NCBI GenBank assembly: GCA_001275005.1
Contig: JWZX01003301.1
Coordinates: forward strand, 1-45,170
Origin: Chrysochromulina tobinii
Lineage: Eukaryota
Direction of reading: 5' to 3'
Length of the DNA: 45,170 nucleotides
In this document: piece by piece, positions 7,955 to 38,975 of the stretch
Position numbering within the stretch: the first letter of the stretch is position 1
Layout: each line of letters begins with the position of its first letter
The notes under the pieces: model-generated
Told to the model about the DNA's origin: nothing
What the model saw: the letters and a program-made list of their open reading frames with translations, nothing else
The model's database searches: none
Program-made: the position numbers and the translations under genes

Positions 7955-9411
7955 TCAGGGCATGTTGTTGAGCTTCTTGAAGTGCGCCATAGCCTCTGGC
8001 TCGGAGTTGAGCTTCTTCCAAGCCGCGACCTGCTTGAAAATGTGCGCGAGCACGTGACGCGCCGTGCGGTTCTCCGGCCGGAGCACCTGGCTCACGCCGA
8101 GCAGGTCGCCCGCCTCCTTGATGAAGTACTCGAGGTCGTCATCATTGCACTTGTTGGTGAGGTGCGCGAGACGCACCTTTTCGGACGCGAACTGATCGTC
8201 GAGGTCGAACAAGTCGAGGGCAGGAGGCGGGGGCTCGCGCAACGAGGGCGGGAAGACGGCGGGTTGAAGCGGCGGTAGAGGGTGCTCAAACTGCGGCGGG
8301 ATGAGCGAGAGGGGCTCGTGCTTGACGTCGAGGGTCTCGTAGAGCTTCACAGCCTCCGGGATGAGAGAGGTGTCGAATTTGAACAGCGAGTCGTCGAAGA
8401 GCGTCGTGAAGTCCTTCGTGACCTCCTCTGTCTCCTCGAGACAGCAGCGCACCTGTGGGGAGGGGCAGAACGCCGTGGTGAGCACTTGCATGCCGTGAAC
8501 TCGACCTCCTCGAGACAGCAGCGTACCCGTTCCGCGAGGGCCTCTGAGTCAGGCAGCTGGTGGTACTCGGCCACGTCGGGGTCATCGGCGTCGATCGAGT
8601 CCATCGTGACGCCGCCGTCGTGTGTGAGCCAGCGCAAGAGCACATTCACCAGCTTCCCGTTCTCCTCCTTATCCACCCAGTCGTCCTGCAGCACGTATGA
8701 CGAGCCGAGCACACAAAGGCGGCCGCCACCCAGAGCGCCCGAGACGGCGCCCGAGCGCGCCCTCTCGCCACTCCAGAGCGCGCAGACAGGCCGGTTGAGC
8801 GGGAAGGCGAGCGGCCCCGAGGAGAGCACGGGGAAGGCGGGCTTCTGCACCGCCAGCGAGCAGCCGTACGGGTACACGAACGACAAGTTGGCCTGAGGCG
8901 ACGACTCAGAGATTGCTGGCGGCACCAGCGCACCTGTCGCGGCGGACGCCGCGCGCGGCCGCCTGCCAGAAGCGACGTTGATCTCACGGTTGAGGACGCC
9001 GTTGGCAATGTGCACCTCCTTCGGGTGCAGGTACTTGTAGTACACCGTGCGCACCACCGCGTCCTGGTTGAAGGCTATGCCGTATTCCTCGCAAAAGTAG
9101 TTGACATTGGTCGCAAACTTGCTCTCACCCTCCTCGCCGAGCGTGATGAAGATGGAGCCGCCCTCCTTCATGTACTCGTTCATCGCCTCAAACTCCGCCG
9201 CCGAGAACTTCTCGCGCGGCCCCACAATAGCAAAGACCGACGCCTCGCGCAGCACTGCAAGAGTAATCGCATCCTTGTTGACGGCGATTGTGAACTGGCT
9301 ACCCAGCTTCCGTCGGAGCCCCTTGAGCCCCTGGTTGGGGGTGAACAGCTCGCGCTTTGACACGTCGAACAGGATCGTCTTCTCCTGACGGCCCACAATG
9401 GGGGCAGCCAT
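7955..9411 (-). CDS. IFT52: Intraflagellar transport protein 52; exons 9411-8527 and 8452-7955
   Basis: ILFDVSKRELF, GPREKFSAAEF, DAVVRTVYYKYLHPKE, FVYPYGCSL, PLSLIPPQFEHPLPPLQPAVFPP, LDLFDLDDQFASEKVRLAHLTNKC. A 74-nt GT-AG intron at 8526-8453 joins the two frames. Confidence 0.95.
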
Positions 9412-12446: not shown

Positions 12447-12911
12447 ACATCGTACTTTTGAGCACTAAGATTAACCGCATAGGGTGGGACTGGAGACCTG
12501 CGGTACACCAGGGCGGAGACCTGGGGATGTACCGCTCTGGGTAGACCGCAAATCAAGTAATCAACGTCAAATAGAACACAGATCACAGTCGGTGTCATCA
12601 TTTCAAGATTTCATGCCCCGACCACCGTACGTAGCCTGCGTTCAATAATATAACCAAGAACTAACCTTAAACACCTTCTATTGAGTTTGCCCCGCAGGCC
12701 CTGCAATTTAACGTGAACGTGAACGTCTGAGTTCCATTTTTGGACCGTGTGCCTCACAACACGCGACGCGGGCGCGCGACGCTACGCGCCTGCGTTGCGG
12801 CCGTGTGGAGTGCCGAGCAAGCCCATGCAGTGCGCGTGCCAATCCGCGTGGCTCGCTGCGGCTCACCCGTCCGCCGCGGCTACGAAACAGTTAGGTGATT
12901 ACCACATTGCC

Positions 12912-13940
12912 ATGGCTCCTAAGAATGACCATCTCAAGCAGGACGTGGCCAAACTGTCAGAATCAGGTGCCAGTTCGCACCGCAGCGACGCCCAGAGCCA
13001 TCGTCGCGACATTCCGAGCAAGGAGTTTATGCCATCACAGTTTAGGTCACCGCAGTCTATGCCACGCATGAGAAGCCCCATCACCGGCAGTAAAGCTGCT
13101 GCAAATCAGGGTGCCGCGGTCAGCAGGGCACGCTGCCCGTTGCCTGATCAAGACTTCACACAAGTGGAGTGGCGACGCTACCTGCGCCGCGTGTACGGCA
13201 CAGGTTACCTGAATCTATCTAAGGCCGACCTCAACGTTGTCAATCTCACTACGTTGGCTAACACCTCGGCTCTCATGCACCGATACGTTGATAAGCTTCA
13301 ACGAGTCTTTCCACGCAACTTTGGCTGGAGTGGCTGCTGGAACTGTGGTCAAGGGCCGTTTGTGACCACCATGAATGTGCACACCCCTTTGGAACTTGCT
13401 TGGCGGCTGCGAGTTCACCGCAAGGTGGTGGCGAGTGGAAATGGTGGGAACACGGCGCTAAGCAACCATTCGTGGGTGGAGGTGACGCACTGTGGTGGCT
13501 CCCATTTTGAGCAGAACGCGTCGTACTTTTACCATGCCCGTGGAAGCGGAATGTGGATCCATGTTGGATACACAATTGCCTTTGGCTACCATGATGAGGC
13601 CGTGCTGCATTTTCTCGGAAAGAATTGTTCGCGGGGTGTGAGAGAGAACAATGGCAGGCTTCAGTGCGATCGCGAGCTCAACCGGATGGCGGTCGTAGCA
13701 CGCCAGAAGGGGTACGAGAGCGTGCAGTTCCTGCGACACTGCGATGCTAAGTGCGACGAGTGCTTGCACGAAATTGCTGTGCTCTATGGTGGTAGTGGGC
13801 GCTCGGCGTGCCCGAATATCGAGATGCGGCGAGGCTCCAGAGCACAATTGCCGTGCACATGCGTGCCGCGTGGCACGAGTGTCGGCACAATCGTGAAGCC
13901 AAACCGTGGGCCGTGCGCCACGTGCGCTGAGTGGCTCTGA
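12912..13940 (+). CDS. Hypothetical Cys-rich protein
   Basis: ORF of ~340 aa with globular-looking motifs (WVEVTHCGG, YFYHARGSGMWIHVG, GYESVQF, HEI) and many Cys. GC is lower than in neighbouring genes. Start uncertain. Confidence 0.55.
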   Translation: MAPKNDHLKQDVAKLSESGASSHRSDAQSHRRDIPSKEFMPSQFRSPQSMPRMRSPITGSKAAANQGAAVSRARCPLPDQDFTQVEWRRYLRRVYGTGYLNLSKADLNVVNLTTLANTSALMHRYVDKLQRVFPRNFGWSGCWNCGQGPFVTTMNVHTPLELAWRLRVHRKVVASGNGGNTALSNHSWVEVTHCGGSHFEQNASYFYHARGSGMWIHVGYTIAFGYHDEAVLHFLGKNCSRGVRENNGRLQCDRELNRMAVVARQKGYESVQFLRHCDAKCDECLHEIAVLYGGSGRSACPNIEMRRGSRAQLPCTCVPRGTSVGTIVKPNRGPCATCAEWL

Positions 13941-15659: not shown

Positions 15660-16597
15660 CTCTCACTCCTCACCACCTCGACGCTCGACGCCGCCTTGCA
15701 CACGTCAAGGAGCACCGAATTCAAGTGGGCAGGAAAGAGCTCATCCGCCGCTGTGAGCGTCGGCAGCATGCCGATGGTGCCGACAAAGAACTTCTCGAGG
15801 TGCGGCGCATGCATCGCTGCGCGCCCGCGCTTCACGCCCGCGGTCCTCTCACCCACATAGCAGAAGAAGATGTGCCGCGGACGCTCGTCCACGCGCAAGG
15901 GCAGCACGCCATAGTTGATGGCGTCCTCGAGGAGCGCGGCGCGCAGGCCGTCAAAGCCGTCGGAGCCGCGCGCGATCGGCACGATCTGGGTCTTCGAGCC
16001 CTCCGCGTACGTGCACACGCACCAGCCGCTCGCCAGCGCGCGCGTCTCCGCCCATGCCGCTGCAAGCTCCGGGTCACTCAGATCGAGGTCGGAGCGCGGC
16101 CGAACGTCGGCGAGCCGGCCGTTGGGCGCGGGCACGTGCGCCGCAAGCTGCCGCTCCACCGCCGTCGTGTCGACCGTCGACTCGCCGACCGCGAGCAGCT
16201 CGGCGGGCGGGGCCGATTTGATGAACTTGATGCTGCGAGAGTTGACGCAGTGGCGCTGGTCGCTCTCGGTGTGATGCTCGCCCGAGAAAAGATGGCCCAG
16301 GTGGCCGTCGCACTGCGCGCACACAATCTCCACGCGCTGATCGCCGTGTGAAAAGTCCGGCTGCACGCGCAGGGAGCCGACGTAGCAGCGATCAAAGGAT
16401 GGCCATCCGCAGCCGCTCTTGTACTTGGCTGCGGCCGAGAACAGCGGGTTCTTGCAGCCGCGGCAGACAAAGTAGCCCTCAGTGGGGTAAAGGTCGTTGT
16501 ACTCGCCCGATCGCGCGGGCTCGGTCGCCTTCTCGCGAAGCACCCGGTACTCATCGGGCGTGAGGGTGCGGCGCCAGTCGAAGGCCGCGGTCATCAT
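15660..16597 (-). CDS. msrB: Methionine-R-sulfoxide reductase (MsrB) fused to an ADF-H/coactosin-like domain; 3' end unresolved (frame stays open to 15113)
   Basis: LTPDEYRVLREKATE, CRGC and CAQC zinc ligands, GCGWPSF, HLGHLF, RHCVNS. Then DLSDPELAAAW...WCVCTY...GSDGFDGL...INYGVL...IFFCYVGERTAGVKRGRAAMH (ADF-H-like). Confidence 0.8.
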
Positions 16598-17011
16598 CTG
16601 GACCGATCTGTCCTTTGGCAAGACTGAGGGCAGCCACGAGCTGGCCGGCGGCCGGCCCTTTGCCTTCCATCAGGATAGTACCGGTAAAACGGTTTGAGGG
16701 CCTTCAAAAGTTTCGATGATTGTGTTGCCCATCAGGATGGATAGCGTTCACGTTAAATTGCCATCTCGGCAAGACGATTCGATGGATTGATGTTCAATGT
16801 ACTGTCTGAAAGGCGGGACCGGCAACCAATTTTTCAGATCTGAGTGACCCGGAACTCTCGACATACAGACTGGCCGCTATACAAAACAGCCCCCGGAAGC
16901 GGCGGAGCCGGAAACTGCGAGTCGCGCCCCGCGGTGTGGTTGATTGCGTGGCGGCGCGGGGAGGGACCGCGAAATAACCTGACAGACTGACTGGGTGTCA
17001 GTGTCACGAGC

Positions 17012-18313: not shown

Positions 18314-18808
18314 ATGGACAGCTCTCTTCGAACGCGCGGATCCTGGCGTCCGGATCGACCTGCGATGGCACCGCATGGAATTGCCTGGCAGAACAAGTCG
18401 GGGGCGGCCAGCATGCACTCTCCTATGGCGCTTGCAAGCCCCCGGCCCAGTTCTTCCATGGGAGGCTCGTTTTCGGTGACCGCCGCTCGCTTTGGCTATC
18501 CGGCTCAGAACGGATATGTGGAGCCTAGGTCTCCTGATTCAATTCGCACGCTCGGCCATCAGCGCTTCGGGTGGAAGGCCTCTCGGCTCTCAGAAATGGA
18601 GCCAGTGGCGTTCAGTTCCGGACCAAGACCCCACAGGCCAGTGTTCCGAGGCACGCTCACGGGCGACTACCGCCTCGGTGACACCCCGTACAGCGCCCGA
18701 GAGCCAAGGTACAGCGAGCAAGTGCCAATGTCCTTTTCGAAGGTGCGCAGCGTAATGTACGACATCAAGCCAGGTAAAACCTCGCGAACGGTCGACTACT
18801 TTCAATGA
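18314..18808 (+). CDS. Hypothetical protein
   Basis: ORF divergent from the Nudix gene that fills the gap before UTP18. No recognisable domain. Confidence 0.35.
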   Translation: MDSSLRTRGSWRPDRPAMAPHGIAWQNKSGAASMHSPMALASPRPSSSMGGSFSVTAARFGYPAQNGYVEPRSPDSIRTLGHQRFGWKASRLSEMEPVAFSSGPRPHRPVFRGTLTGDYRLGDTPYSAREPRYSEQVPMSFSKVRSVMYDIKPGKTSRTVDYFQ

Positions 18809-24355: not shown

Positions 24356-24522
24356 GTCGCTGCGCTCATCGCTGCGCTCATCGCTGCGCTGTACTGCGCT
24401 GTACCTCTGCACTCCGTCGCGCTCCGTCTGCCCTGTCGCTCCTGCGGCTCAACCGCCTGCAGATCAACGCCTGCGGATCAACGCCTGCGGATCAACCGCC
24501 TGCGGATCAACACCTGCGGCTC
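24356..24522. repeat. Two minisatellite arrays just downstream of the strawberry notch stop: 12-nt TCGCTGCGCTCA-like (~3 copies) and ~14-nt GATCAACGCCTGCG (~5 copies)
   Basis: Tandem units directly visible at about 24356-24400 and 24441-24522. Confidence 0.8.
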
Positions 24523-27449
24523 TCACATGCTGCGAGGAAGCAGATTCCGCGCCTTGAGCGCGAGCACCTTTCCCACGTGGATGCCAGTCATCACTGCGAC
24601 GCTGTAGCGCTTCGTCTTGGCGTCGTAGTCGCAGATGTAGCCGCCGCAGAGATTGTACTCTGGCTTGGTCACGAGGTCCTGAATCGTCACCAGCGCGCCC
24701 TTGTTCTGGTGCGGCGGCGCGCCACTCCGGTACACGACCTTGGGCGCCGGCGCGGCACCTCCCAGGTTGGGCTTGACATCGGGCTTGATGTCGGGCTTCA
24801 CGTCGGGCTGGGTGCTCGACGCGGCGGCCGCGCCTGCCGGGTCGGCGCTGCCTCTCGCAAGGGCGGCCTTGAGCTTCGTGATGATGGTCTCCTGCTCGAT
24901 CTGGATGCCGACGATGCGCACCTCCTTGCCGTCCTGGTCATTGCAGCGCACGCGCACGATGCGCATACGCGAAATCTTGCGAACCTGCGCGCGATCGGAG
25001 GCCTGGTGGTACACGTAGCCGACCGCCTGCTGCATCTGCTCCCAAAAGGGAAGCACCGCACCGCTCAGCACGAACTTGGACTGGATGCGCAGGCCCACCT
25101 TGCAGTCGCCTTTTTCGCGCTTCTCCTTGCAGTTGGGCCCATGGGCACACACGGTGCGCGCGTCGTCGTACAGGCGCGTCCACGTCTTCCGGAGGAGCTC
25201 ATGGTCCTCCACCTTCTTGTAGAGGTACGCGATGTCCTTGAGCGAGGTGTCCTTACCCAGCCCAGTCGAAGGGCGCACCACCTTGAAGATGGGCACCGGG
25301 TTGAGTGCAAAGGCCTTGACGGGCCGCTGCAACAGGATCATGTGGCCGTGCAGTCCCTCCTTTTCGCGGCCGAGGATCGACTTCTCCGACCGGTAGAACC
25401 CCTCCGCCTTGCCGAGCGCGCCATCGGGGTTCGCCGCCTTCTTAGCGTCGACCATTTCCAAGGCGCGCTCATAGGAGATGCCGCGGTCGACGTCAATCCT
25501 ATGCAGCCAGAGCTCGACGCCCGACGACGGGTCGTTCGCGAGCGCGTGCGGGTAGCCCGCGGCCACGCTGAGCGACTCGCCGTGGAGATCGACGACGCCC
25601 TCGTCAAACTTGTCCTCCTCCTTTGCCTTCTTGATCTGCTCGTCCAGCTCAGCCGCAAAGTGCGAGAAGAGCAGGTTCTGCGTGCGGATGGGCAGCCCGA
25701 GCAGCCGGTTGAGGAAGGTCTTGACCGTGACCTTGTCCATGTCCCGCCCATCGGTCACACCGCACTCGATGAGCGCATCCTGCCCGATCTCAAGGTACTC
25801 GCGCCACTTGCGCTGCAGGTCGGCGTTGAGGGCAAGCCCGAGCGTCTCGCGCACGTGCTTCGGCGGCGGCGTCTGCGAGTAGAAATCTGGGCTCTCTGTC
25901 AGCTCGAGCACCGTGCGCATCGCCTTGCGCCCGTAGGACGTATCCACGTCGAAGTTGCTCAAGTCGCTCGCGTCCGCAGCCCGGCGGTCTCCCTTGGTGA
26001 GCGCTCCCATGTTCTGCAGCCGCTTGCACAGCATCGAGGCAAAGCGGCGCTCGCCGCCGGCGGCGGTCATGACGAGGCAGTACTCGGGCCCATGCAGCTG
26101 GTTGGAGCGGTGAGTGCGCCCACACTGCTGGATGCATTGGTCCGCACTCCACGGCAGCTCGAGTGTGATGTGCACGCGCACGCGCGTGTTGGGCACGCGA
26201 CGGTCGGCTTGGAGCGAGATGCCCGACGAGGCCGCCTCCGAGATGATCGCAACGAGCTTCTCGCCGTTCATGAAGGCCTTGCGCTCGGCTAGGTTGACCT
26301 TCTCCATTGTCACCTGATGATGGAGGCAATCAGTCGCACTCAGTGACCATCAGCACCCATCCTTTCGCTCGGCGAGGTTGACCCTCTCCATCGTCACCTT
26401 GTGTCCATCCGGGTCGACGAGCCCGTCGTTACGCTTGGCGTACACGGTCGCGCCGCTCGCGTCGCGCACGAGCCGCCCCTTGCGCCCGGTCATCTCGGCC
26501 ACCTGATGAGGGAGGCAATCCGGCGCACTCAGTGGCCATCAGCATGAATCAGTGGCCATCAGTGGCTGGATCGAGTCGTCCTCTCCGTCACATGCTCGGG
26601 CCCTCCAAGGGCGTGCAGCAACGAATCGAGCGGGTTGTCAGGGCACGTGAGCTTGTCGAGCCGCTTGTAGAGCTCGCGCTTGAGCTTGATGAGCTGACGA
26701 ATCTCGTGCGGGTTCTCGTGCTGGAACGCACTCGGCGGAGCGGCGTCGTCCTCGTCGTCGTCGAGCGCTTCCATGCTGTCATCCAAGCTGTCGTCCTCAT
26801 CGTCGTCAGAGGCCGCCGCCTTGCGCCGCTTGGGCGCCACCTTCTTACCTGCCGCCGCCACCGCCGCCGCCGGTGCCTTCTTGAGTGCGGCCGGCGGCGG
26901 CGCCTTGACGGCACGCTTGCTCTTGGCGGCGGCGCGATTGCCCTTGGGCCGCGAGTAGTCCGAGTCATCCTCATCAACGTAAGCGTCCTCGCTCTCCGAG
27001 TCCGAGTCCGAGGCCGAGGCCGACACGTCCGAGTCGTTGACGACGACGCGCCGACGCGGCGGCGGCCGCCGGCTCGGCGCTGCCTTGGCCTTGGCCTTGC
27101 CCTTGGCGCTGCTGTGCTGCAGGGGCTCGTTCTCGCCCTCGTCCTCGTCCTCGTCGTCCATCAAATCTGAGCCGTCCTCGTCCTGCACGACGCGCCGCCG
27201 TCTCCCTTTGGCTGCCGCGCCCGCCGCACCCGGCGCCGTGTAGCTCGCATGGAGCTTCCAACGGTCGCCCTTGCTAAGGTCGAGCCACTCCGAGGCGCCG
27301 TCGCCAAACTCGAGCTGGTGCAACGAGTTCTTCTTGACGGCGATCACCTTGCCAGTGCGCCACGCGCCCTTGGCGTTTTCGCGGACGTCGAGCGTCTTAT
27401 GGAGAAGGCCGGACGGCGCCTGGAACGCGTCGTCGTCGTCGTCCGCCAT

Positions 27450-27483
<34 letters not shown>

Positions 27484-30068
27484 TCGCTGCCGTCGATCTC
27501 AACGAACTTGGAGCGCGCCATCGTCGCCGCGTTACGGCTCAGTCGGCGGCGGCCGTTGGGCGCCTCGTCCGCATCCCGCGAGCTGCCGGCGCGCGCGCGC
27601 ACGCCAGCGCCGCCGCTGCTCCCGCCGGCGCGCCCTCTCTTCTTGGAGTCGGGTTGGTCGACGACGACGAGCACCCCAGCCTTGATGGCGAGCTCGTGCA
27701 CCGAAGGGCCGTTGGATTCGCGGTGCTTCTGCTCGATGCCCTTGAGCATCGCGTTCAGGTGCGCCTCCGACATGGCGTTCTGCGACTTGACGCCTGCCAG
27801 GTCGAGCACCCTGCGCTTCATCTGCATCGTGAGGTTCATCACCTCGGCTGGCAGCTTCACCTTGGTCGCCTTCGGCCCCTCGCCCTCGAACTCGTACTCC
27901 TCGTCCTCCTCGTCCTCGTCCTCCTCCGCTTCGTCCTCGTCAGAGCCTGCGATGAAGCCGTCCAGGTCGTCGCCCTCGTCCGAGTCCTCCGAGCGATCCT
28001 CGTCGTCGAGCCGCCCGCCGCCGCCGCCGCGCCGCTTCTTGCCCTTGCGCCGGCCGCGCGCCTGCTCCATTAAGGCAGCATCCTCGTCCTCGGCGTCGCT
28101 CAGCTCCTCGTGCTCGTAACGCCCAAGGTAGTCGCCTGTGGGGAACTTGCTGATGAGCGTGCGCAGCACCTCGCCCAGCCCACTATAGTCCTCGAGGTCC
28201 TCGCCGTTCTTCACCGCGTCCGACAGCCGCGCCTCGCCCGTCGACTGCAGGCCAATGACGACGCACTTGCCCTCCGCAAGCGCGGCCTTTGCGACTTGGC
28301 TCACGCGCGGCACCTTGATCGCCATGCAGAGCGCGCGAAAGAAGCGCTGGTGCGTGCCCCAGAACTGCGACATGACGCGCTTCGCAGGGTGTTTTTCGCG
28401 CTCTTTGACGCGCAGCATCTCGAGTGCCGTCGTGAAGCAGCCTTGCATGTCAGACCAAAATCTGGCGGCCTCGTCGTACATCTTTTGCTGCGGCTCGGTC
28501 AGGTCGATGATGAGCTGACTGTACGACGCGCTCGCGAAGCTCAGCTGGCGGCTGATGTACATGCCGCGCCGCTTCATGTCGAGCGCCACGAGCTCCATCG
28601 CTCCCGTGCCGCCGGCAGAGATCGCCTTCTCGAACTTGGTGAAATCGGGGAAGCTGGTTTGCGGCCCCCACAGTCCCAGTCGGCTCGTGTACGCGAGGTT
28701 GGCGATCGACGCGGCGCCCGTCGCCGAGCAGTACACGACGCGCGCGCTCGGGCAGAGCTGCTGCAACTCCTCGACGGCCTTGGCCATCTTCGTGCTCTTG
28801 CCCTTCGTGCCCTTGCCCCTGCCTGCCACCGGCCGGCCCGCAGCGAGGTCCGCGGCCGCCTTCTCGGCCTTCTCGTCCGCCTCGGGGTGAAGGTTCTTGG
28901 CCTTGTGCGCCTCGTCGAAGAGGATGCAGCCCTGGGCGCCGTTGCCGCCCAGCCACTCGACGATCATCTGCGTGCGCTTCTTATTGCCCGACGCGCCGAG
29001 CAGCGCCGAGTATGTGGCGAAGAGCACACCCTCGGTGAACTTGAGACCGTCGACCTTTTGTGCCTCGAGCCTGGAGGCGTAGGAGGTCTTGGTGATGTTG
29101 ATGATGCGTACGTCGGTCGCGCCAATGTCGCGCAGGTCGCGCTCCGCATCGACGCACAGGTCGGCCGAGACCGAGACCCACAGGTGACGCTTGATGCCGC
29201 GCGCCCAGTTATCGAGCACGATGCCCGCGAGCTGGCGCCCCTTGCCAAGGCCCACTCCGTCGCCCAAGAAGAAGCCGGCGCGGTTGCCGTTGGGCAGGCG
29301 CAGCTCGTGCCGCATCGCCGCGTACGCGACCGTCTCGAGCTGCGCCTTCGAGAGAGAGCCGCCGTATGGGTTGGCTGCGCTCGAGGGCTCGTGGATGCGC
29401 TTCAGTGGCGCCGAGAAGGTGTGCTTGATCTTGGGCAGCTCGGCAAAGGAGAGGGAGGTGGTCTCGACGATCGGGTCGGGGTGCGGCTGCCCGCCCACCA
29501 GGTGGCGCGGCTGGTACTCCGAGAAGAGCTCCTCGTTCTCTTCGTCCTTTTGGTCCGTCTCCTGCTGGTCCTGCTGCTGGTCATCTGCCGACGCGGACGC
29601 GGCCGACCCATCGGCGGCGGCGACGGCGGCGGCGAAACGCGCTGCCACATCGGCGGCTGGAACGGTGGACACCTTGGAGGCCTGCGCCTTCTGCTTGAGC
29701 TTGAGCCGCTCCGTCGCCCACGGCGGCGTGCCGTCGCAGACGCAGTGCGCACTCCAGTCTTTGCACTTGGTCCACACGTCGTCGCAGAGCCAGCAATAGC
29801 ACTTATCGCACGCGACCTTGCACTTGTCCGGCGTGGGCTGGGCGGGAAATTTGTGGACCAGGCAGTCGAAGCGCGCGTGGGGCATATCGCGCATTGCCTG
29901 CGAGCCGGCGGACGCGTGTGACGGCGAGTCGGCGCGGTGAGCGGGGCGCAGGTTGTGTCAGGGCGGTGACTCCACGGGTCAATTAGGAAGCGAGGGATTG
30001 GCGCGTACGTCAACTCCCGTGGCACCCACGAGCTCGACGTCTTCATCAGCTGTGGTCGAGGATTCCAT
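24523..30068 (-). CDS. SBNO: Strawberry notch (SBNO/EMB1135-FORGETTER1-like) helicase-like protein; exons 30068-30009, 29897-26592, 26502-26398, 26313-24523
   Basis: HPDPIVETTSL, LSKAQLETVAYA, GFFLGDGVGLGKGRQLAG, FDEAHKAKN, VVYCSATGA, GAMELVALDMK, QFWGTHQRFF, CVVIGLQSTGE, LGGPEH|VAEMTGRKGR, IISEAASSGISLQAD, ELPWSAD, GRTHRSNQ, FLNRLLGL. Three GT-AG introns (30008-29898, 26591-26503, 26397-26314) restore one frame. Confidence 0.93.
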
Positions 30069-30566: not shown

Positions 30567-32568
30567 ATGAAAAACACGGTCTTCCATACGTTGGCTCTGC
30601 TCGTCACCTCCTTCGACCTGGTCGCAACTGTCAAGGTTGTCGTCGTCGGTGCAGGCACATCGGGTCTCGCGGCGGCGCGTACTCTGACCGACACGTGGGA
30701 TACTGATGAAAATGGAGGACCCCTGGAGCTGACGGTGCTCGAAGCTGGGACTCGCATAGGTGGCCGTACGTGGACGCTGAATGCTTCCGAGGCGGGAGCG
30801 GCCTGGAACACCGCCGGCGCTCTGGGAGCGCCGACGGACATGGGTGCGAGCTGGATCCATGGGAGCACTTCGACACATCCGATCACCAAGATTGCAACGG
30901 CCCTGGGCCTGGCTACTGGTTCAGGACTCGTGAGGACTAGAGATAATTTGGCCGAGCTTCGCCTCTGCACCGCCGGCAAGACCTCGGCCTGCTCGGAGCC
31001 CAACAACGATGAGTTCACCGCGTACGAGAACCTGCTCTCACAAGCACAGGAGAGTGCGGAGGATTCGGATACGGACATTTCGCTTTGGCAGGCGCTCTCA
31101 GGCCTTTCGAGCTCGGGGCAGAATCGAGAATCGAAGCTGTTCCAGTACCACCTCGCCACCGGCGCTGAGTTCAACACCGCCGGGCCGGTCACTCAGCTGT
31201 CAGCCTGGAACTATGATGATGATTCCCAATATTCTGGCACTGAGCTCGTGTGGGCACAAGGGTACAAGGTGATGTACGAGGCGCTGCAGAGCGGCGCGGT
31301 CCGGGTTAATGACGGTTCGAGCACCCTGCAGGTTGCCGCCGTGGCGTCTGCCAGCCGACAGCCCATCTTGGTCACGTACAACAAGCGCGTCACGTCCGTC
31401 ACGTACAGCAGCACGGGAGTTGTGCTGACGACTGCGGACGGCAGCACGTACAACGCTGATTACGTGATCATCACGATCCCCCTCGGGGTGCTCAAGAGCA
31501 CCGACGCGAGCTCCAGAGTCACATTCAGCCCGGCACTCCCGCCAGCCACGGCAAATGGCATCTCTCAGCTTGGTTTCGGCAACGTCGTCAAGATCGCCCT
31601 CTTGTTTCCCACCGTTTGGTGGCCGACAGGTACGCACTATTATGGCCTTGCCCAGGCGGGGACCGACCGCGGCCTCTTCACCTACTTCCTCAACGTGCAT
31701 GCGCTGTCAACCAAGCCTGTGCTCATGACGTTTGCACTGGGTGCGTCTGCCGACACGGCGGAAGGGATGAGCAACGCCGCCGTCTGGACGCAGGTGCGTT
31801 CTCCCTCGCTTCTCCAGCACACCTCTTGCGCATCTCGTGCCTGGGCGTGGTTCCGGACGAACCTGCTCGTGATCTCCCATGCATCTCCCCCTGCATCTCC
31901 CTCGCAGATCCGGGCGAATCTGGTCAAGATCTTCCCGAGGTCTGTCACGGTCCCGACGACTGCGCCTCAGATGATTCGCTCGACTTGGCGCGCCAATCCT
32001 CTTGCGAAGGGCGCGTACACATATGTTGCAGTCGGTGCGTCGACCGACCCATCGCTGCTGCCGTTGGCAGTGCCATTCTCCGACCTTCCCCTGAGCTGCC
32101 CCGAGTCTTTTTATCATGGCAGGTACGTCGAAGAACACCATCACGGCCGCCTTTGGTGGCAATGTCGGAGGGAGGCTCTTCTTTGCAGGCGAGCATACGT
32201 CCGCGGCGTACAGAGGGACTGTCCACGGCGCCTTCCAGACTGGCCAGGTGCGCACACCCCGCACCTCCCCTCATCTCCCACGCATCTCCCACACGTACCT
32301 CCCATTCACCTCTCCCTCGCCCCCGTTCGTACCTGCTCAGGTCGCGGCGCGTGCCGTCAAGGCCTGCTCAGCTGAAGCGGGCACTGACGACGACGGCGAC
32401 GATGATGACGACGACGATGATGACGACGACGACGACGACGATGACGACGACGACGGCGACGACGATGACGATGCCCCGAGCTCCAAGCGGAGCTTCCTGT
32501 TCTCCAAGCGGAGCTCCCTGATTTCCAAGCAAGAAGCGGGCAATGTGCTCGCGCCAGCGACGCAATGA
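30567..32568 (+). CDS. Flavin-containing amine/polyamine oxidase with signal peptide and poly-Asp tail; introns 31794-31907, 32035-32122, 32248-32340
   Basis: VVVVGAGTSGLAAA, LEAGTRIGGR, DMGASWIHG, ADYVIITIPLGVLK, WRANPLAKGAYTY, LFFAGEHTSAAYRGTVHGAFQTG. The 88-nt intron resolves the frame switch. Confidence 0.9.
32386..32473 (+). repeat. (GAC/GAT)n trinucleotide tract encoding poly-Asp
   Basis: About 29 codons, almost all Asp, near the oxidase C-terminus. Confidence 0.9.
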
Positions 32569-33313: not shown

Positions 33314-35700
33314 TTATGGCATCGTCTGGAACGTACGCAGCATCCCCTGGTCCACGAAGCTCGCAAACGGAGCCGTCGAGAGCGTTGCCATATCCGCGGC
33401 GCTCAGCTTGCAGGAGCGCACGCGGTGGCTGATGTCGAGCCGCGGCGTCATCTCCACGGCGAAGGCGACGAGGAACTCGCACGAGAGCCGTTGGACGGTA
33501 TCCGTCGTCCACGCCGCCTTAGCCGTCGCGGCGAGATACTGCTCGAATGCGAGCGTCGTCGCGAGCGCAGGCGCCGTCGTGAGTCCGATCTGCTGCAGAC
33601 TCTCGAGGAGTACGCTGTCCTCAAGGAGGGTCCACTCGCCGAGCAACGCGGGCAGCGCCGCGCGGTCGACGTACGCGAGGGTATCGAGCGCGCCGCCCAG
33701 CACACTCGGCTTGCCGATGAAGGCGACGCCGTACCCCGAGGGGTCTGCATCTGCGACCGGCACGCCGGGCGCGCTCGGGTTGAGAACGATGGCGTAGAGG
33801 TCGCGGCGCACTGCAGGAGAGAAGAGGGGCGTCTGCGCTGATCGCGCGGTCACAGCGGCCGCGTACGCGGGGTCATGGACGCTCCGGATCGTGACGCCCA
33901 GGACGACGCCCAGGCCGGGGCTGCTGTTTGCCGGCGCGATGCGCGCCGTCGCTGTCCTCGACGCCGGCGTCGGCTGCTCTACGGCCATGCTCGTCACGAC
34001 CGGCGCGGCGGGTGGCCTGTGCCACGGCCAAATGGGTGCGGGCGTCACGCCTGGTAGCTCACCCGCTGCCGCGCCGAGCCCGAGACGCGCCGTCGCGAGC
34101 GCGAGTACGGGCGCGAGGTGCGCCTTTAGATCAGCCGCGCTCGCCGCCGCCTCCTGCGCCGCCTCCGCCGACGCCGCACGGGCCAACACCCATGTGCCAA
34201 AGTCGGCGGCTGGGCCATCGGCCGCGCCGCCGAGACCGAGCACACGGATACCCTCGAGGAGTCTAAGGGTGAGCGGCACGATCGGCAGCTGCATAGCCGG
34301 CGAGTGGGCTGCGGGGGGTGGCGCGGGCGGCGCCGAGAGCGCACTCACACTCACACCAATCTTGGTGGCGGCGCAGCGCTCGCACAGATCATAACGACAC
34401 GACGCGCAGTGGAAGAAGAAGGGGGCGCTCCTCTCGAGGGAGGTGCGTTGGCACTGATCGCAAGAGGTCGACTGGTAGCCCGCTGGGGTGCTTCCGACCA
34501 TCTTGGCCATCGGGTGCGCGCGCAGGCAGGGCACAGCGGGTAGTGCTGCCGCCTGTGCGGAGCTGCCTAAAGTGGGGGCTGCCCCGCCGATGGCGGCGGC
34601 GCCGCCCGTGCCGAGGGCAGGCTGCGAGGCAGAGATGCTGTTGATGACCTCGAGCGGATTGGGAGTACTCCAAATCGGGGTCGCCAGCCGTCGGTCCTCG
34701 TGAGTCCGTCCAAAGGGGCTGCCGCGGCCAAAGGGACTGCCAAAGTTGACGGGAGGGCGAGCGGCGAGCGTTGCGATGGATTGAGCGTCGAGGGTCGAGC
34801 GCACACGTGCCACCAGAATGGTCAGTGCTTCCTCGAGAGAAGCGCGTGTCAGACGCACAAGTACCTTGGTCGCCTTGGCCAAAGGAGCGGCGCCGAAGGT
34901 AATGGGGCGCCAGGGTTGCGCCGGCGCCGGAGCGGCTTCATCGAGTGCGGCCACGCTCGCCGCATACACACCGCCAAGGCTCTCTCGCAGCCAACGGCTC
35001 ATGGTAGGAGGGCTCGTGAGGAGCTCAGCGGCATCGGCGTCGTCTTCATCCACCGGCGAGCCGAAGCGGCCAGTCGGCCGGTAACGGAAGCCATAGGGCG
35101 TCGGCACTGGTGCTGCCCACGGTGGGGGCGCTCCGACCGCCGGGGCAGCAGCGGGCGCACTGAAGAGGCGGCGGCCTGGTGCGGCCTGGTGCGGAGCGCT
35201 CGAGGCAGCGCTCGAGGCCGAAGCCAGGTGTGAAGCCAGGTGTGAAGCAAGGGGCGCAGCGCTGAAGGGCGTGCATGAGGGCGAGGGCGGCGCGTATCCA
35301 AGTATGGCAGGCGAGGCCGACGGAGCACCAAAGGGCGCAAAAGGCGCGCGCGGCCCTTGACCAGCAGCACCAAAGGGCACAGCACCGATGGGCGCAGCAC
35401 CAAAGGGCACAGGCGAGGGCGCAGGCGAGGCCGGGGGAGGTCGTCTCAAGGAGGCCTCGTGAGACTTGTAGAGCCGCTCGCCGACAGCAGGTGAGGTCTG
35501 GGGCGGCGCACCGAAGGCAGGCGACGCCGATGGCGAGGGCGGTGCAGCTCCGAAGGCCGCCGTTGAGCCAAGTGGCGCAGGACCGAAGGCGCAAGATGGG
35601 GCGAAACCCCCACGGGACGCACCGAGCGGATCACCACCGCCGAAGCCGCCACCACCCTTCAGACCGAATCGGCCTCTGCAGCTGCCACCTCCGTTGCTCG

Positions 35701-35735
<35 letters not shown>

Positions 35736-38566
35736 AGGGCCGCGCGCGCCTTGTGCGCTTCGTCAAACGTGAGACGGTACGCTGAGAAGGCCGCGCGGAG
35801 AGCCGAGGGCTTGGGGCGGCAGTCCTCGGGCACGGGCGCGTGATCCGACTCGAGCTTCGCGACCGCACACCCCTTCGTGACAGAGGGCGCCACCAGCTGA
35901 CCGAGGAGCGAGGTGCGCAACGTGACAAGCGTGCGCTTTGCCGCGCACACCTCCGGCATCGCCACAGTTCCCGCCAGATGGTAGGCGGGCTCAAGGAGGG
36001 GAAGGTGGCGCAACGCCTGCTGCGTCGGTTTCAAGGCGAGCTTGGCGCGCAGCGAGGCCACCGCGCGGTCCCCATCGCTCAGGACAGGGATGCCTCCAGG
36101 AGTGCCTCGAGCCTCGCCTCGAGAGTGCCCATCACGACGCGAAAGAGAAGGTGGGGCTGTCTCAACAAGTTCCCACTCGTCTGCCGGTTCCGGCGGACCC
36201 GACGATGTAGCTGCGCGCCTGCGCGCGGCGGCAGAGGCGAGGTCTTCCGGCCCCGTGGGGGCGACTGCGGCGGCGGCGGTGCCAGCGGCCGTGGCGTTGC
36301 GTGCCTTCTCTCCAAGAGGAAAGCTGTACGTCGTGCGCCCGTCCCCGAGGGTGAGGCTCACAGACGGCCTCGCGCCGCCCTTGGCCAGGCCTTTGATGAG
36401 CTTGTCTAGGCCGCTGACGTCGTTTGGGTTACGGGGAGTGGGTGGAGTGGCGACGGCGCCCAGCGCGCCGCTTGGGTGCAAGAGGATCATCTTGAGGCGC
36501 GTGCCCGGGAGCGCACGCACGGCAAAAGTAGAATCGCTCTCCATTACCCCGTGACTAGAGAGCCCTCCGAGGGCCGCAGGCTCGTGCGCCCACTCGGGCG
36601 GCGGGGCGGCGGCGTCACTCCCATTGCGCAGCGCGAGCAGCTGTGCTCCATGCACGCGCAGCGTGAGGCGTGAGGCGGCGCGCAGCACCGAGCGTGCGAG
36701 CAACCCAAGCACTTTGGTCTGGATCGCGCCCCCCTCGAGAGACTCGACCATGAGCGCCTCGCCGCCCGTCATGCGAGCCAGCCACGAGACGCAGCTCGGG
36801 TCGAGCCACGGCCCGTACCCCAGGCAGTCGACCTGGAAGAAGCCGACGCCCGGCTGCTTGCGGATAGCATCGATCTCGCCGAAGAAGCGCTCGCGTGACG
36901 TGGCGCCGCCGTCGGTGACGAGAATGACAGAGTGGAGCGACGCCGGATTCACCGCGACGCACGCCCGCAGCTCAGCCGACCACGAGTCGTAATTGGTACA
37001 GCCCCCTGGCCGGAGCGCGCGCAGCTGCGCCTGCAGCTGTTCAACGACGTTGCCGGGCTCGGTCCGATCCGCGGGCAGCATCACGTCGGCGAGGCCCGTT
37101 GTGCGATCGTCAAAGCTCCATAACCGCACGCGCACGGGCTGCATGTTGATCAGCTGTTGATCGCGCAGTGCGTTCAAGTGCACGGGCAGTGCGTTCAGTA
37201 TGGCCCTGAGCAGATGCTTTGAGGTGTCGAGCCGCGCCACGTGGCCGCCCAGGGAATCCGAGTGCACGCTCATCGCGGTAGAGCCCGAGGTATCGATGAT
37301 GACATAGAGCTCATGCGGCGCGGATGTGGGTGCTAGCCCTGGCAGCGGCGCGAGGGGCAAGGTCAGGTCCACGAGCGTCGACGCAAGCTTAGAGCCATCT
37401 TCAGGCGCGAAACACACTCCGTCGATTGTGTCGACGGCATGGACAGCCGAGCTTAGCGCGGCTTCCGCCGCCATGGCTGGGTCTTTCTGCGCCGGCGCGC
37501 CGATGGTGAGTTTGCGAAGCTCAGCGATCTGATCGATCTGCGGCTCGGACAGGCGTACGCGTACGAGCGTCCCTCGCGCGAGGCCGGTGGGCGACCTCCA
37601 CGAGAGTCGGCGCCACGAGTCGAGCGAGCCAGCGCTGAGCAGCGTTGGCCCAAGCTGCAAAAGCTCGCTCACGGCGGGTGAGACGTCGCGCAGCCCGCGC
37701 AGGTAGCGGAGCGTCGCGCGATCGGCCTCACGCCCGAGCTTGATGACATCCTCACGTAGCACCTCATCCTCGGGCACAACGACGGCGAGTCCGGGGCCCA
37801 CATGGACCTGGAGCTCGAAGGGCACACCGACCGCGTCGAGGGGGGTGAAGCCCGGCACGATAGACACGTCCGCGATGCGCTCGGATGGCGCCTCGCCGTT
37901 GGCACCCACGCGGTCGCGCCGCCTGAGTCCGGAACCCTGTAGGAAGCGGCAGCCAAAGATGACTGTCGCACCGTCAGGGATCTTGTCGAGCTTGATCTGA
38001 AAGGCATCCTCGGCCGTGTCCGAGAGGGTGGCGCTGTGTGTCGTCGAGGAGGCCGCGGCTTCGTAGCTTGCATCTGCCTGCTCCTTCTCCATCACCTCGG
38101 GATTGTACTGGATCTTGTCGCACACGTGCTCCTCCTCGAGCAGAAGCAGGTCAGGCAGTCGCGGCACGTCGAGGATGGCGGCCGCGGTGCCGCCCAACCG
38201 GTTGGTGACGGTGACCCTTAGGTCCCAGATGACGCCCGACTCGCGCGTGACGACGGCCGTGAGCGTGACGCGCTCAGGGAGCACGCACACATTCTGACGA
38301 GTTGTTGCGCCGAGTGTGACGCGCACAGCGGCGATGAAGCCATTCGATTCGTCGATGGGAATGTAATTATTTGCCTCGACATTGTCGCCAGGGCCCGCGT
38401 TGAGTCCGGGGGCCTTGGGGTCGGTCAGCGTGCGAGGCTCCAAGCCGGTGGCCTCGCACACGGAGACTTGAACACCGCAACAGCTGGCTGGCGCGGCAAA
38501 GGCCTGCGCGGAAGCGAAGGGGTTGGTAGCAGTTGCGGTAGAGCGTGGAACCGAGAGCTCGAGCAT
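33314..38566 (-). CDS. 1750-aa protein with a VIT-like region, vWA domain, PFGA-repeat low-complexity linker and ZZ-type zinc finger (VWA5-like)
   Basis: MIDAS LYVIIDTSGST, PGGCTNY, VILVTDGG, LARMTGG. N-terminal EVMEKEQADASYEAA (VIT-like). CDQC...FFFHCASCRYDLCERC (ZZ-like). Poly-Q tract. Confidence 0.75.
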
Positions 38567-38975
38567 GGTTCTGCGTTTGTGTGTCTCGTGACGCCGCGCG
38601 TGTAGACAGCAATAGCTCGCTTTCAGAGGTGTTTCAGAGGTGTTTCAAATGCACTCCAGTCCTACTCGTAAATTTCGCTAGAGAGGTCAGTCTCTCCCAG
38701 CACGCATGGTGATCTCTGGTGCTCGCTGCACTACACTGCCGGGCGGGATAGTGATAGGCAATCAGGTGGGGGTGGTCACAATGTTCAATGTTGTATAACT
38801 GAAACTGAACTGTACCTTCATAGAAGATAGAACTGAACTGAACAATGTTGTAGAGGCCTTTCTGATGAAGTTCGCATCTCGTCAGATCGCCTCATTGTCG
38901 GTACATGTACATGTTTCGATGTTGTGTGGTCATTGTGGATGAGGGGCCCATTCCGCAAATTACTGTCGGTGTTGA

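What the first reader, a model, noticed from the sequence alone, without database searches (positions are those of the whole stretch)
26277..26591. Candidate intron-creation system: exon duplication supplies the GT donor, a shared repeat module supplies the AG acceptor
Seen: strawberry notch intron 26397-26314 begins with a 37-nt copy of the next exon's start (GTGACGATGGAGAGGGTCAACCTCGCCGAGCGAAAGG vs GTGACAATGGAGAAGGTCAACCTAGCCGAGCGCAAGG, 33/37). Intron 26591-26503 begins with a more decayed copy of its next exon (GTGACGGAGAGGACG vs GTGGCCGAGATGACC, 11/15). Both end in the same 42-nt module, TGCTGATGG(C/T)CACTGAGTGCG(C/A)C(G/T)GATTGCCTCC(C/A)TCATCAG (38/42 identical; + strand 26314-26355 and 26503-26544). 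The module is itself a degenerate ~10-nt tandem repeat rich in branch-point-like CTGA. The same exon-copy design recurs in IFT52 and the amine oxidase. Known: Introner elements in algae such as Micromonas and Aureococcus gain introns by co-opting splice sites from short target-site duplications. Inference: here the duplications are long and variable (15-37 nt), start at an exonic GT, and the insert has no terminal inverted repeats. This suggests staggered-break repair or target-primed insertion of a repeat cassette that yields an immediately spliceable intron.
Basis: partly seen in the sequence, partly recalled or inferred. Interest (0 to 1): 0.9.

Follow-up and report, generated by a model that had tools for sequence, protein, structure and literature searches.

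The report
Introns born by copying neighbours' ends
In a freshwater haptophyte alga, many short introns consist of a copy of the gene's own next exon joined to a tail shared with other introns, sometimes only with the neighbouring one, which likely means that new introns are still being made here by a DNA-copying slip rather than by a classic transposon.

Summary
Confirmed and general. Both strawberry notch introns are spliced in RNA at the stated ends. Proteins match Chrysochromulina tobinii. In related contigs, 94 of 245 introns with this 3' module and 33 of 65 with a second module carry a copy of the next exon's start, against about 0.4% in controls. The module is not one fixed cassette. 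It is a variable tail, and in five cases a private variant is shared only by two neighbouring introns. Junctions show microhomology. Mirror-image and stacked introns exist. Close strains lack the intron at 2 (perhaps 3) of 13 sites, and relatives lack both strawberry notch introns. Best reading: a microhomology-guided double template switch duplicates about 11-55 nt of exon and copies an existing intron's end (inferred). Rivals are remodelling of old introns and an RNA-templated cassette. The 15-nt copy in intron 26591-26503 is ambiguous. Published introner surveys require similarity at both intron ends, and one lists this species with none. This scan noted the footprint before on another piece of this genome (e1-2577349).

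The parts
26314..26397 (-). Strawberry notch intron, 84 nt, phase 0, GT-AG
   Evidence: skipped in 3 of 3 RNA runs, not in the DNA run; frame and homologue alignment
26361..26397 (-). 37-nt copy of the next exon's start; supplies the GT donor
   Evidence: 33/37 identity; top hit of the window-wide scan
26277..26313 (-). exon start that was duplicated
   Evidence: family D12
26314..26355 (-). 3' module A (CTGA-rich repeats, pyrimidine run, CAG)
   Evidence: 38/42 to 26503-26544; last ~20 nt dispersed in 144+ stretches; upstream part private to this pair among 725 kb
26398..26502 (-). 105-nt exon between the two introns
   Evidence: RNA contigs; 47-aa ORFs in strains
26503..26591 (-). Strawberry notch intron, 89 nt, phase 0, GT-AG
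   Evidence: skipped in 2 of 3 RNA runs
26577..26591 (-). ambiguous 5' end: decayed copy of its own exon (11/15) or of the neighbouring intron's start
26503..26544 (-). 3' module A, second copy
   Evidence: DNA depth about 7100 against 43, so many other loci carry it
24523..29894 (-). Strawberry notch gene (AAA_34, Helicase_C_4, SBNO domains); start inferred
8453..8526 (-). IFT52 intron, 74 nt: 21-nt exon copy plus module B
   Evidence: skipped in RNA run X13
32035..32122 (+). amine oxidase intron, 88 nt, with a decayed ~34-nt exon copy and neither module
   Evidence: not RNA-tested

Best explanation
These are real spliced introns of a widespread class, each made of a copy of the adjoining exon plus one end shared with other introns, and they likely arise when repair DNA synthesis jumps twice at short matching sequences. 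Inferred steps: synthesis runs some tens of bases past an exonic (A)G|GT, switches at a few matching bases into the 3' part of an existing intron (its own, a neighbour's or a distant one), copies to that intron's CAG|GT, and switches back to the exonic G|GT. The result has a donor from the duplicated exon and a branch point and acceptor from the template, and splicing restores the protein exactly. The mirror event copies a donor end and duplicates the upstream exon's end. Selection would keep only products long enough to splice (most are 65-90 nt). Each new intron would be a template for the next, so the modules spread without a dedicated element. Shown: anatomy, splicing, enrichment, neighbour-private tails, empty alleles. 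Inferred: direction of change, the enzymes, and a DNA rather than RNA template.
For: Enrichment: 94/245 module A sites and 33/65 module B sites against 0.39% and 0.36% of permuted pairs; 34/114 among sites met only as bystanders. In 78/94 the leftmost copy was classed as not following a module end; removal from copy start to AG keeps the frame in 54/66. Copy ends are module-like beyond a blunt-join null (0/500, 3-mers). Position -1 is G in 47/55 and -2 is A in 28/55. Five private tail variants occur only in two neighbouring same-strand introns among 725 kb (L030, L036, L126, L001, this pair). Close same-strand pairs: 9/135 above the background 99th percentile against 60/7323. Several stacked units carry a tail unlike the unit before. 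Mirror design in 8/31 donor-motif hits against 0%. Empty alleles at ProRS (3 empty, 8 filled) and a tRNA methyltransferase (6 empty, one on a 17,260-nt contig; 8 filled), each with linked amino-acid differences. ProRS relatives on 5-217 kb contigs read through both sites. All 105 listed intron-bearing ORFs at 12 sites (queries included) open with the copy. Six homologue clusters, five with contigs of 7-100 kb, read through both strawberry notch sites.
Against: No event was observed, and no enzyme was looked for (no genome held). Mean neighbour similarity is not raised (p=0.31); only the tail of the distribution is. The junction in intron 26397 has 5 nt of filler, not a clean microhomology. Empty alleles could be precise losses through the direct repeat; the ProRS polarity rests on three poorly conserved columns. 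One 84%-identical relative (P0438) seems to have an intron at the same ProRS site. At the third site (L030, 5 filled, 6 empty) empties are not tied to a haplotype and may be part-spliced RNA or collapsed assembly. Ten of 13 sites, both strawberry notch introns included, showed no empty allele among at most 15 listed members each. Many events hit existing introns (16/94 first copies classed as following a module end, 28/94 with several copies), and module-preceded copies look younger (29/42 perfect against 20/61), as remodelling predicts. G and A before the donor are also expected from splice-site selection (established knowledge).
Confidence: 0.5

Rival explanations
1. Remodelling, not birth. 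The introns are older. Their 5' (or 3') part was overwritten by repair that copied a spliced mRNA or cDNA across the junction and stopped early, or a module-plus-exon unit was duplicated in place and the old first unit was deleted. Empty alleles are completed losses.
For: Explains exact starts at the junction and the mirror class in one step (inference). Stacked units are common and look young. A ProRS intron has an extra unit in some strains only. Direct repeats of 20-40 nt would ease precise loss (established knowledge).
Against: No allele with the intron present and a non-copy start among 105 ORFs at 12 sites, though all are close strains. It does not explain private tails shared by neighbours that both carry perfect copies (L030, L036). 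The positions are empty in outgroups, so some gain process is needed anyway.
Confidence: 0.25
2. A short non-autonomous mobile cassette, or intron RNA inserted by target-primed reverse transcription, makes variable target duplications.
For: Fixed 3' end at AG, ragged 5' end, variable duplication and microhomology resemble non-LTR insertions (recalled). About 79% of sites (193/244) are followed by sense-strand coding-like sequence, against 166/187 for true coding pieces, which fits a transcript-linked route. A donor-carrying family with a conserved 5' part exists.
Against: Tails are diverse and sometimes private to neighbours. The mirror class has the fixed end on the other side. One intron has both exon ends duplicated around a core (L016). 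The five viral-contig matches showed no module context where displayed.
Confidence: 0.15
3. For this pair only: intron 26591-26503 is a whole-intron copy of intron 26397-26314 (local intron transposition), and its likeness to its own exon is chance.
For: Its 5' end fits the neighbour's 5' end at least as well as its own exon (scores 19 and 16), and the tails match 38/42.
Against: Both scores are marginal. Both 5' ends also resemble the reverse complement of the module, which could cause convergence. In other neighbour pairs only the tail is shared.
Confidence: 0.08
4. Chance, a one-off local duplication, or an assembly artefact.
For: The 15-nt match is weak. Short-read assembly may distort arrays.
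Against: About 100-fold enrichment; RNA joints; a DNA contig spans the stretch in one piece (may be the window's source); the same introns in many strain alleles; 0 module hits in shuffled DNA against 403.
Confidence: 0.02

Closest known systems
Introner-like elements of Symbiodinium and Polarella glacialis, classes 4/5 and 6/8/10 (bioRxiv 10.1101/2020.10.14.339549; abstract and first part of Results read)
   Same: [quoted passage not shown]
   Different: Fixed 4- or 8-nt duplications and family-wide sequence similarity; inverted repeats in Symbiodinium. Here duplications run from about 11 to 55 nt, only one end is shared, and tails can be private to neighbours.
Introners of marine Chrysochromulina MAGs and of Emiliania huxleyi (PMC9860276, passages and supplement rows; PMC12130899, passages and supplement rows)
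   Same: Same algal group. The figured Chrysochromulina family lacks inverted repeats, carries the donor and co-opts the acceptor, like the mirror class. E. huxleyi fam24 (5 copies) is 'co-opt 5' carry 3'' with a note of 10-bp terminal direct repeats.
   Different: 4-bp duplication in the figured family. The method needs similarity at both intron ends and drops low-complexity families. C. tobinii is listed with 0 families. I did not see their consensus sequences, so shared modules are not excluded.
[quoted passage not shown]
   Same: Direct repeats at new introns; a duplicated exonic GT or AG becomes a splice site; the protein is unchanged.
   Different: There the intron is the duplicate alone or has unrelated filler, and cases are few. 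Here the filler is the end of another intron and the design is found in a third to a half of module-bearing introns sampled.
Intron transposition and reverse-transcription template switching (named in PMC3443670, passages)
   Same: New introns templated by old ones.
   Different: Whole introns move without a long target duplication; here half an intron is copied.

Membership tests
U2-type spliceosomal intron | GT-AG ends removed from RNA, frame restored | tested here: met
   IFT52
Introner (Gozashti et al. definition) | similarity among non-paralogous introns reaching both intron ends | tested here: not met
   5' parts are locus-specific exon copies; the mirror class shares only the 5' side
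Introner (Gozashti et al. definition) | many dispersed related copies creating introns in unrelated genes | tested here: met
Introner (Gozashti et al. definition) | recent gain shown by empty orthologous sites | tested here: inconclusive
   empty alleles at 2-3 of 13 sites and empty outgroups, but polarity is weak
TIR DNA-transposon introner (MITE-like) | fixed-length target site duplication | tested here: not met
   copy lengths 11-55 nt in module A; shorter ones fall below the threshold
TIR DNA-transposon introner (MITE-like) | terminal inverted repeats on the insert | tested here: not met
   inserts have ragged 5' ends; no general 5'-3' complementarity (15 toward, 9 away, 19 neither), though the two window introns pair end to end in a fold
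Non-LTR (target-primed) insertion | variable duplication with one fixed and one truncated end | tested here: met
   but the fixed end differs between the two classes
Non-LTR (target-primed) insertion | a master element and a reverse transcriptase partner | not testable with these tools
   no genome held
Tandem genomic duplication (AGGT model) | the whole intron is a duplicate of exon sequence supplying both splice sites | tested here: not met
   only part is exon-derived; the other site comes from a module
Break-repair intron gain with direct repeats | direct repeats at the borders above background | tested here: met
   (background is permuted pairs, not conserved introns)
Break-repair intron gain with direct repeats | dependence on an end-joining or repair-synthesis pathway | not testable with these tools
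   needs experiments

The most novel reading that the evidence does not exclude
This alga runs a self-feeding, transposon-free intron factory. Existing introns template half-copies of themselves into nearby exonic AG|GT sites, the exon duplication supplies the missing splice site, either end can be copied, and births are still segregating among lake strains. Introner searches miss such a process by design, so it may explain intron bursts in lineages scored as introner-free.
Probability: 0.4. Interest if true: 0.92.

Novelty: new variant of a known kind. Interest (0 to 1): 0.8.

Why it matters
How new spliceosomal introns arise is a long-open question, and PMC12130899 calls introners the only mechanism able to explain bursts of gain. 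Here a species listed with no introners holds a large class of young-looking introns with a readable donor, target and junction. It has a cultured strain, strain-level presence/absence and expressed examples, so birth, loss and mechanism can be tested directly. It also exposes a blind spot of searches that need similarity at both intron ends.

Tried and rejected
An 11-mer of the module is not enriched inside the window (19 against 28 expected). Paralogue pairs among loci were repeat-protein or partial matches and gave no intron comparison. Strain pairs (L055/L117, L094/L113, L002/L004, L013/L053) showed no presence/absence, only repeat-length change; they were selected for presence. Run X20 was too thin to bridge any intron. 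End-to-end pairing of intron termini is not general. The direct overlap measure at array junctions was mostly confounded by multi-unit arrays. The shared-exon-prefix test on 8 neighbour pairs gave p=0.009, but pairs were picked after viewing and values read by hand, so it is not counted as support. Two amine oxidase null tests were mis-anchored by one base and are not used. Eight of 20 ORFs were not in the protein collection. Viral-contig matches and L007 look like chance and were dropped, as were 12 duplicate or overlapping loci, before the counts; overlapping loci L022, L025, L040 were de-duplicated by site. A few counted hits are internal array repeats or misclassed (e.g. L118, L034). Paper searches found no description of this design; the C. 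tobin genome paper mentions introns once (passages). Unseen: files 13-14 of PMC12130899, the cut part of the PMC9860276 supplement, the bioRxiv supplements, and subscription papers.

Full report
Observation. Intron 26397-26314 opens with a 33/37 copy of the next exon, and both introns end in a 42-nt stretch that is 38/42 identical. RNA contigs skip exactly 84 nt in 3 of 3 RNA runs and 89 nt in 2 of 3, with CT..AC ends on the plus strand; the DNA run shows neither joint. One RNA run also holds an unspliced piece of the 89-nt intron. The spliced protein has no insertion at either junction against homologues. The second copy claim is weak: 11/15 is reached by 6 of 700 nulls, and the same 5' end fits the neighbouring intron's start equally well. 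The IFT52 intron has a 20/21 copy and is skipped in RNA. One amine oxidase intron has a decayed copy (0 of 500 nulls); two others have none.

Organism. Protein clusters of the window's IFT52 and strawberry notch ORFs hold named Chrysochromulina tobinii proteins. Clusters of ORFs from fetched loci hold C. tobinii and C. parva. More distant strawberry notch clusters hold Emiliania and Phaeocystis.

How general. After dropping duplicates and chance hits, 245 terminal module A sites (up to 4 mismatches to a 20-mer) had enough context. In 94 the next exon's start is copied within 300 nt upstream, against 0.39% of permuted pairs; copies are 11-55 nt long. Among sites met only as bystanders the figure is 34 of 114. 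The IFT52-type module B gives 33 of 65 against 0.36%. Exons after module A start with GT in 178 and GC in 35 of 245. Cutting from the copy's start to the AG keeps the coding frame in 54 of 66 confident cases, where chance gives a third; single-unit introns have a median of 79 nt, and copy length falls as tail length rises (rho -0.75). Of 244 sites, 193 are followed by sense-strand coding-like sequence (166 of 187 for true coding pieces). These samples are centred on modules and are not a genome-wide rate.

Anatomy. In 78 of 94 cases the leftmost copy does not follow a module end; in 16 it does, and 28 have two or more copies. The last bases of the copy look like module sequence more than blunt joins would give (0 of 500 simulations for 3-mers; 0 of 500 for exon-preceded cases alone). 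The tails are not one cassette. Five private variants occur only in two neighbouring same-strand introns 190-750 nt apart, among 725 kb searched; the window's pair is one. In L030 both neighbours carry mismatch-free exon copies and identical 45-nt tails, with 4 shared bases at the left join. The average neighbour is not more similar than background (p=0.31), but 9 of 135 close pairs exceed the 99th percentile against 60 of 7323. Some stacked units carry a tail unlike the unit before them (L083, L088, L104), so templates can be other introns. A mirror design exists: a shared donor end followed by a copy of the upstream exon's end that supplies AG (8 of 31 motif hits, one of them an internal repeat, against 0%). 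One intron has both exon ends copied around a core (L016).

Gain or remodelling. Six homologue clusters read through both strawberry notch positions as single ORFs, five of them with members on contigs of 7-100 kb. In close strains both introns look fixed (15 of 15 and 3 of 3 informative ORFs). I looked up 20 intron-flanking ORFs and 12 were in the collection; with the site that makes 13 sites. At ProRS, 3 ORFs read through the first intron site yet read the second intron unspliced, against 8 filled. At a tRNA methyltransferase, 6 read through, one on a 17,260-nt contig, against 8 filled. Both empty groups carry their own amino-acid variants. A third site (5 filled, 6 empty) shows no such linkage and is unconfirmed. 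ProRS relatives at 76-85% on long contigs are empty at both sites, but one relative seems to hold an intron at the first. The empties keep likely ancestral residues, a weak sign of gain. The second ProRS intron has an extra mirror unit in some strains only. All 105 listed intron-bearing ORFs at 12 sites open with the copy; none shows a copy-free state. Against this, at most 15 members per cluster were listed, all are close strains, and module-preceded copies are more often perfect (29 of 42) than exon-preceded ones (20 of 61), as remodelling would predict.

Mechanism. I commit, at 0.5, to a double template switch during repair synthesis, guided by a few matching bases: one join in the template intron's interior, one at the shared (A)G|GT. 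It explains variable duplications, ragged tails, neighbour donors, mirror forms and stacking with one process and no element. It is inferred; no event, enzyme or template type was shown. Overwriting of old introns from a spliced template (0.25) explains the exact starts neatly but not the private neighbour tails, and its predicted copy-free alleles were not seen. A mobile or retro-inserted cassette (0.15) fits one class but not the mirror.

Known systems. It works like the 'carry 3', co-opt 5'' introners of dinoflagellates (first part of Results read) and like break-repair or tandem-duplication gains (passages). It fails membership of the introner definition, which needs similarity at both ends and drops low-complexity families, and it has no fixed duplication length or terminal inverted repeats. 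The 2025 survey lists C. tobinii with 0 families; marine Chrysochromulina MAGs and E. huxleyi do have families, whose sequences I did not see. Ten library searches found no account of this design; unseen supplements and subscription papers could hold one.

Verdict. Real, widespread in this species complex, apparently undescribed in the papers searched, and directly testable. New variant of a known kind; interest 0.8.

Noticed in passing
window 26314-26397 and 26503-26591: Both introns fold with 5' and 3' ends paired, and the intron copies pair better with the 3' end than the exon originals do; not a general trend in the class.
   Followed up: yes
window 26210-26288 (run X9): A second strawberry-notch-like contig breaks at 26288 into module B sequence, suggesting a paralogue with its own intron 25 nt from this one.
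   Followed up: no
L006, ProRS first intron (76 nt): Two 38-nt units, each with only about 15 nt of module; a single unit would shift the frame and may be too short to splice, so both may have arisen together or by later trimming.
   Followed up: partly
L030 minus 18471-18548: A 78-nt copy-bearing intron that is in frame and stop-free, so tolerated even unspliced; present in 5 and absent in 6 strain ORFs.
   Followed up: partly
P0438 and P0440: ProRS relatives that seem to have introns at or near the same two sites: parallel gain or older introns.
   Followed up: no
L010, L034, L042, L062: A donor-carrying family with a conserved 5' part joining module A repeats to the module B core; a candidate progenitor or true introner.
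   Followed up: partly
L069, L092, L096: The exon starts with GC but the intron copy starts with GT, suggesting donors improve after birth.
   Followed up: no
window about 31794-31907, 32248-32340 and 10588-10681: Another repeat type (ATCTC-rich units) fills two amine oxidase introns and a 21-nt array; no exon copy in the two introns.
   Followed up: partly
window 16271-16937: DNA depth about 640 against 45 in run X9: an unexplained dispersed repeat.
   Followed up: no
window 12834-13025: A diverged second copy exists in DNA, and the RNA contigs here carry its variants.
   Followed up: no
window 24441-24519: 14-nt tandem array right after the strawberry notch stop codon.
   Followed up: no
window 33317-38644: A 1776-codon open frame with only a weak VIT-domain hit.
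   Followed up: no
L002 / L004: Orthologous module A intron differs by 80 nt of 10-mer repeats between strains.
   Followed up: yes
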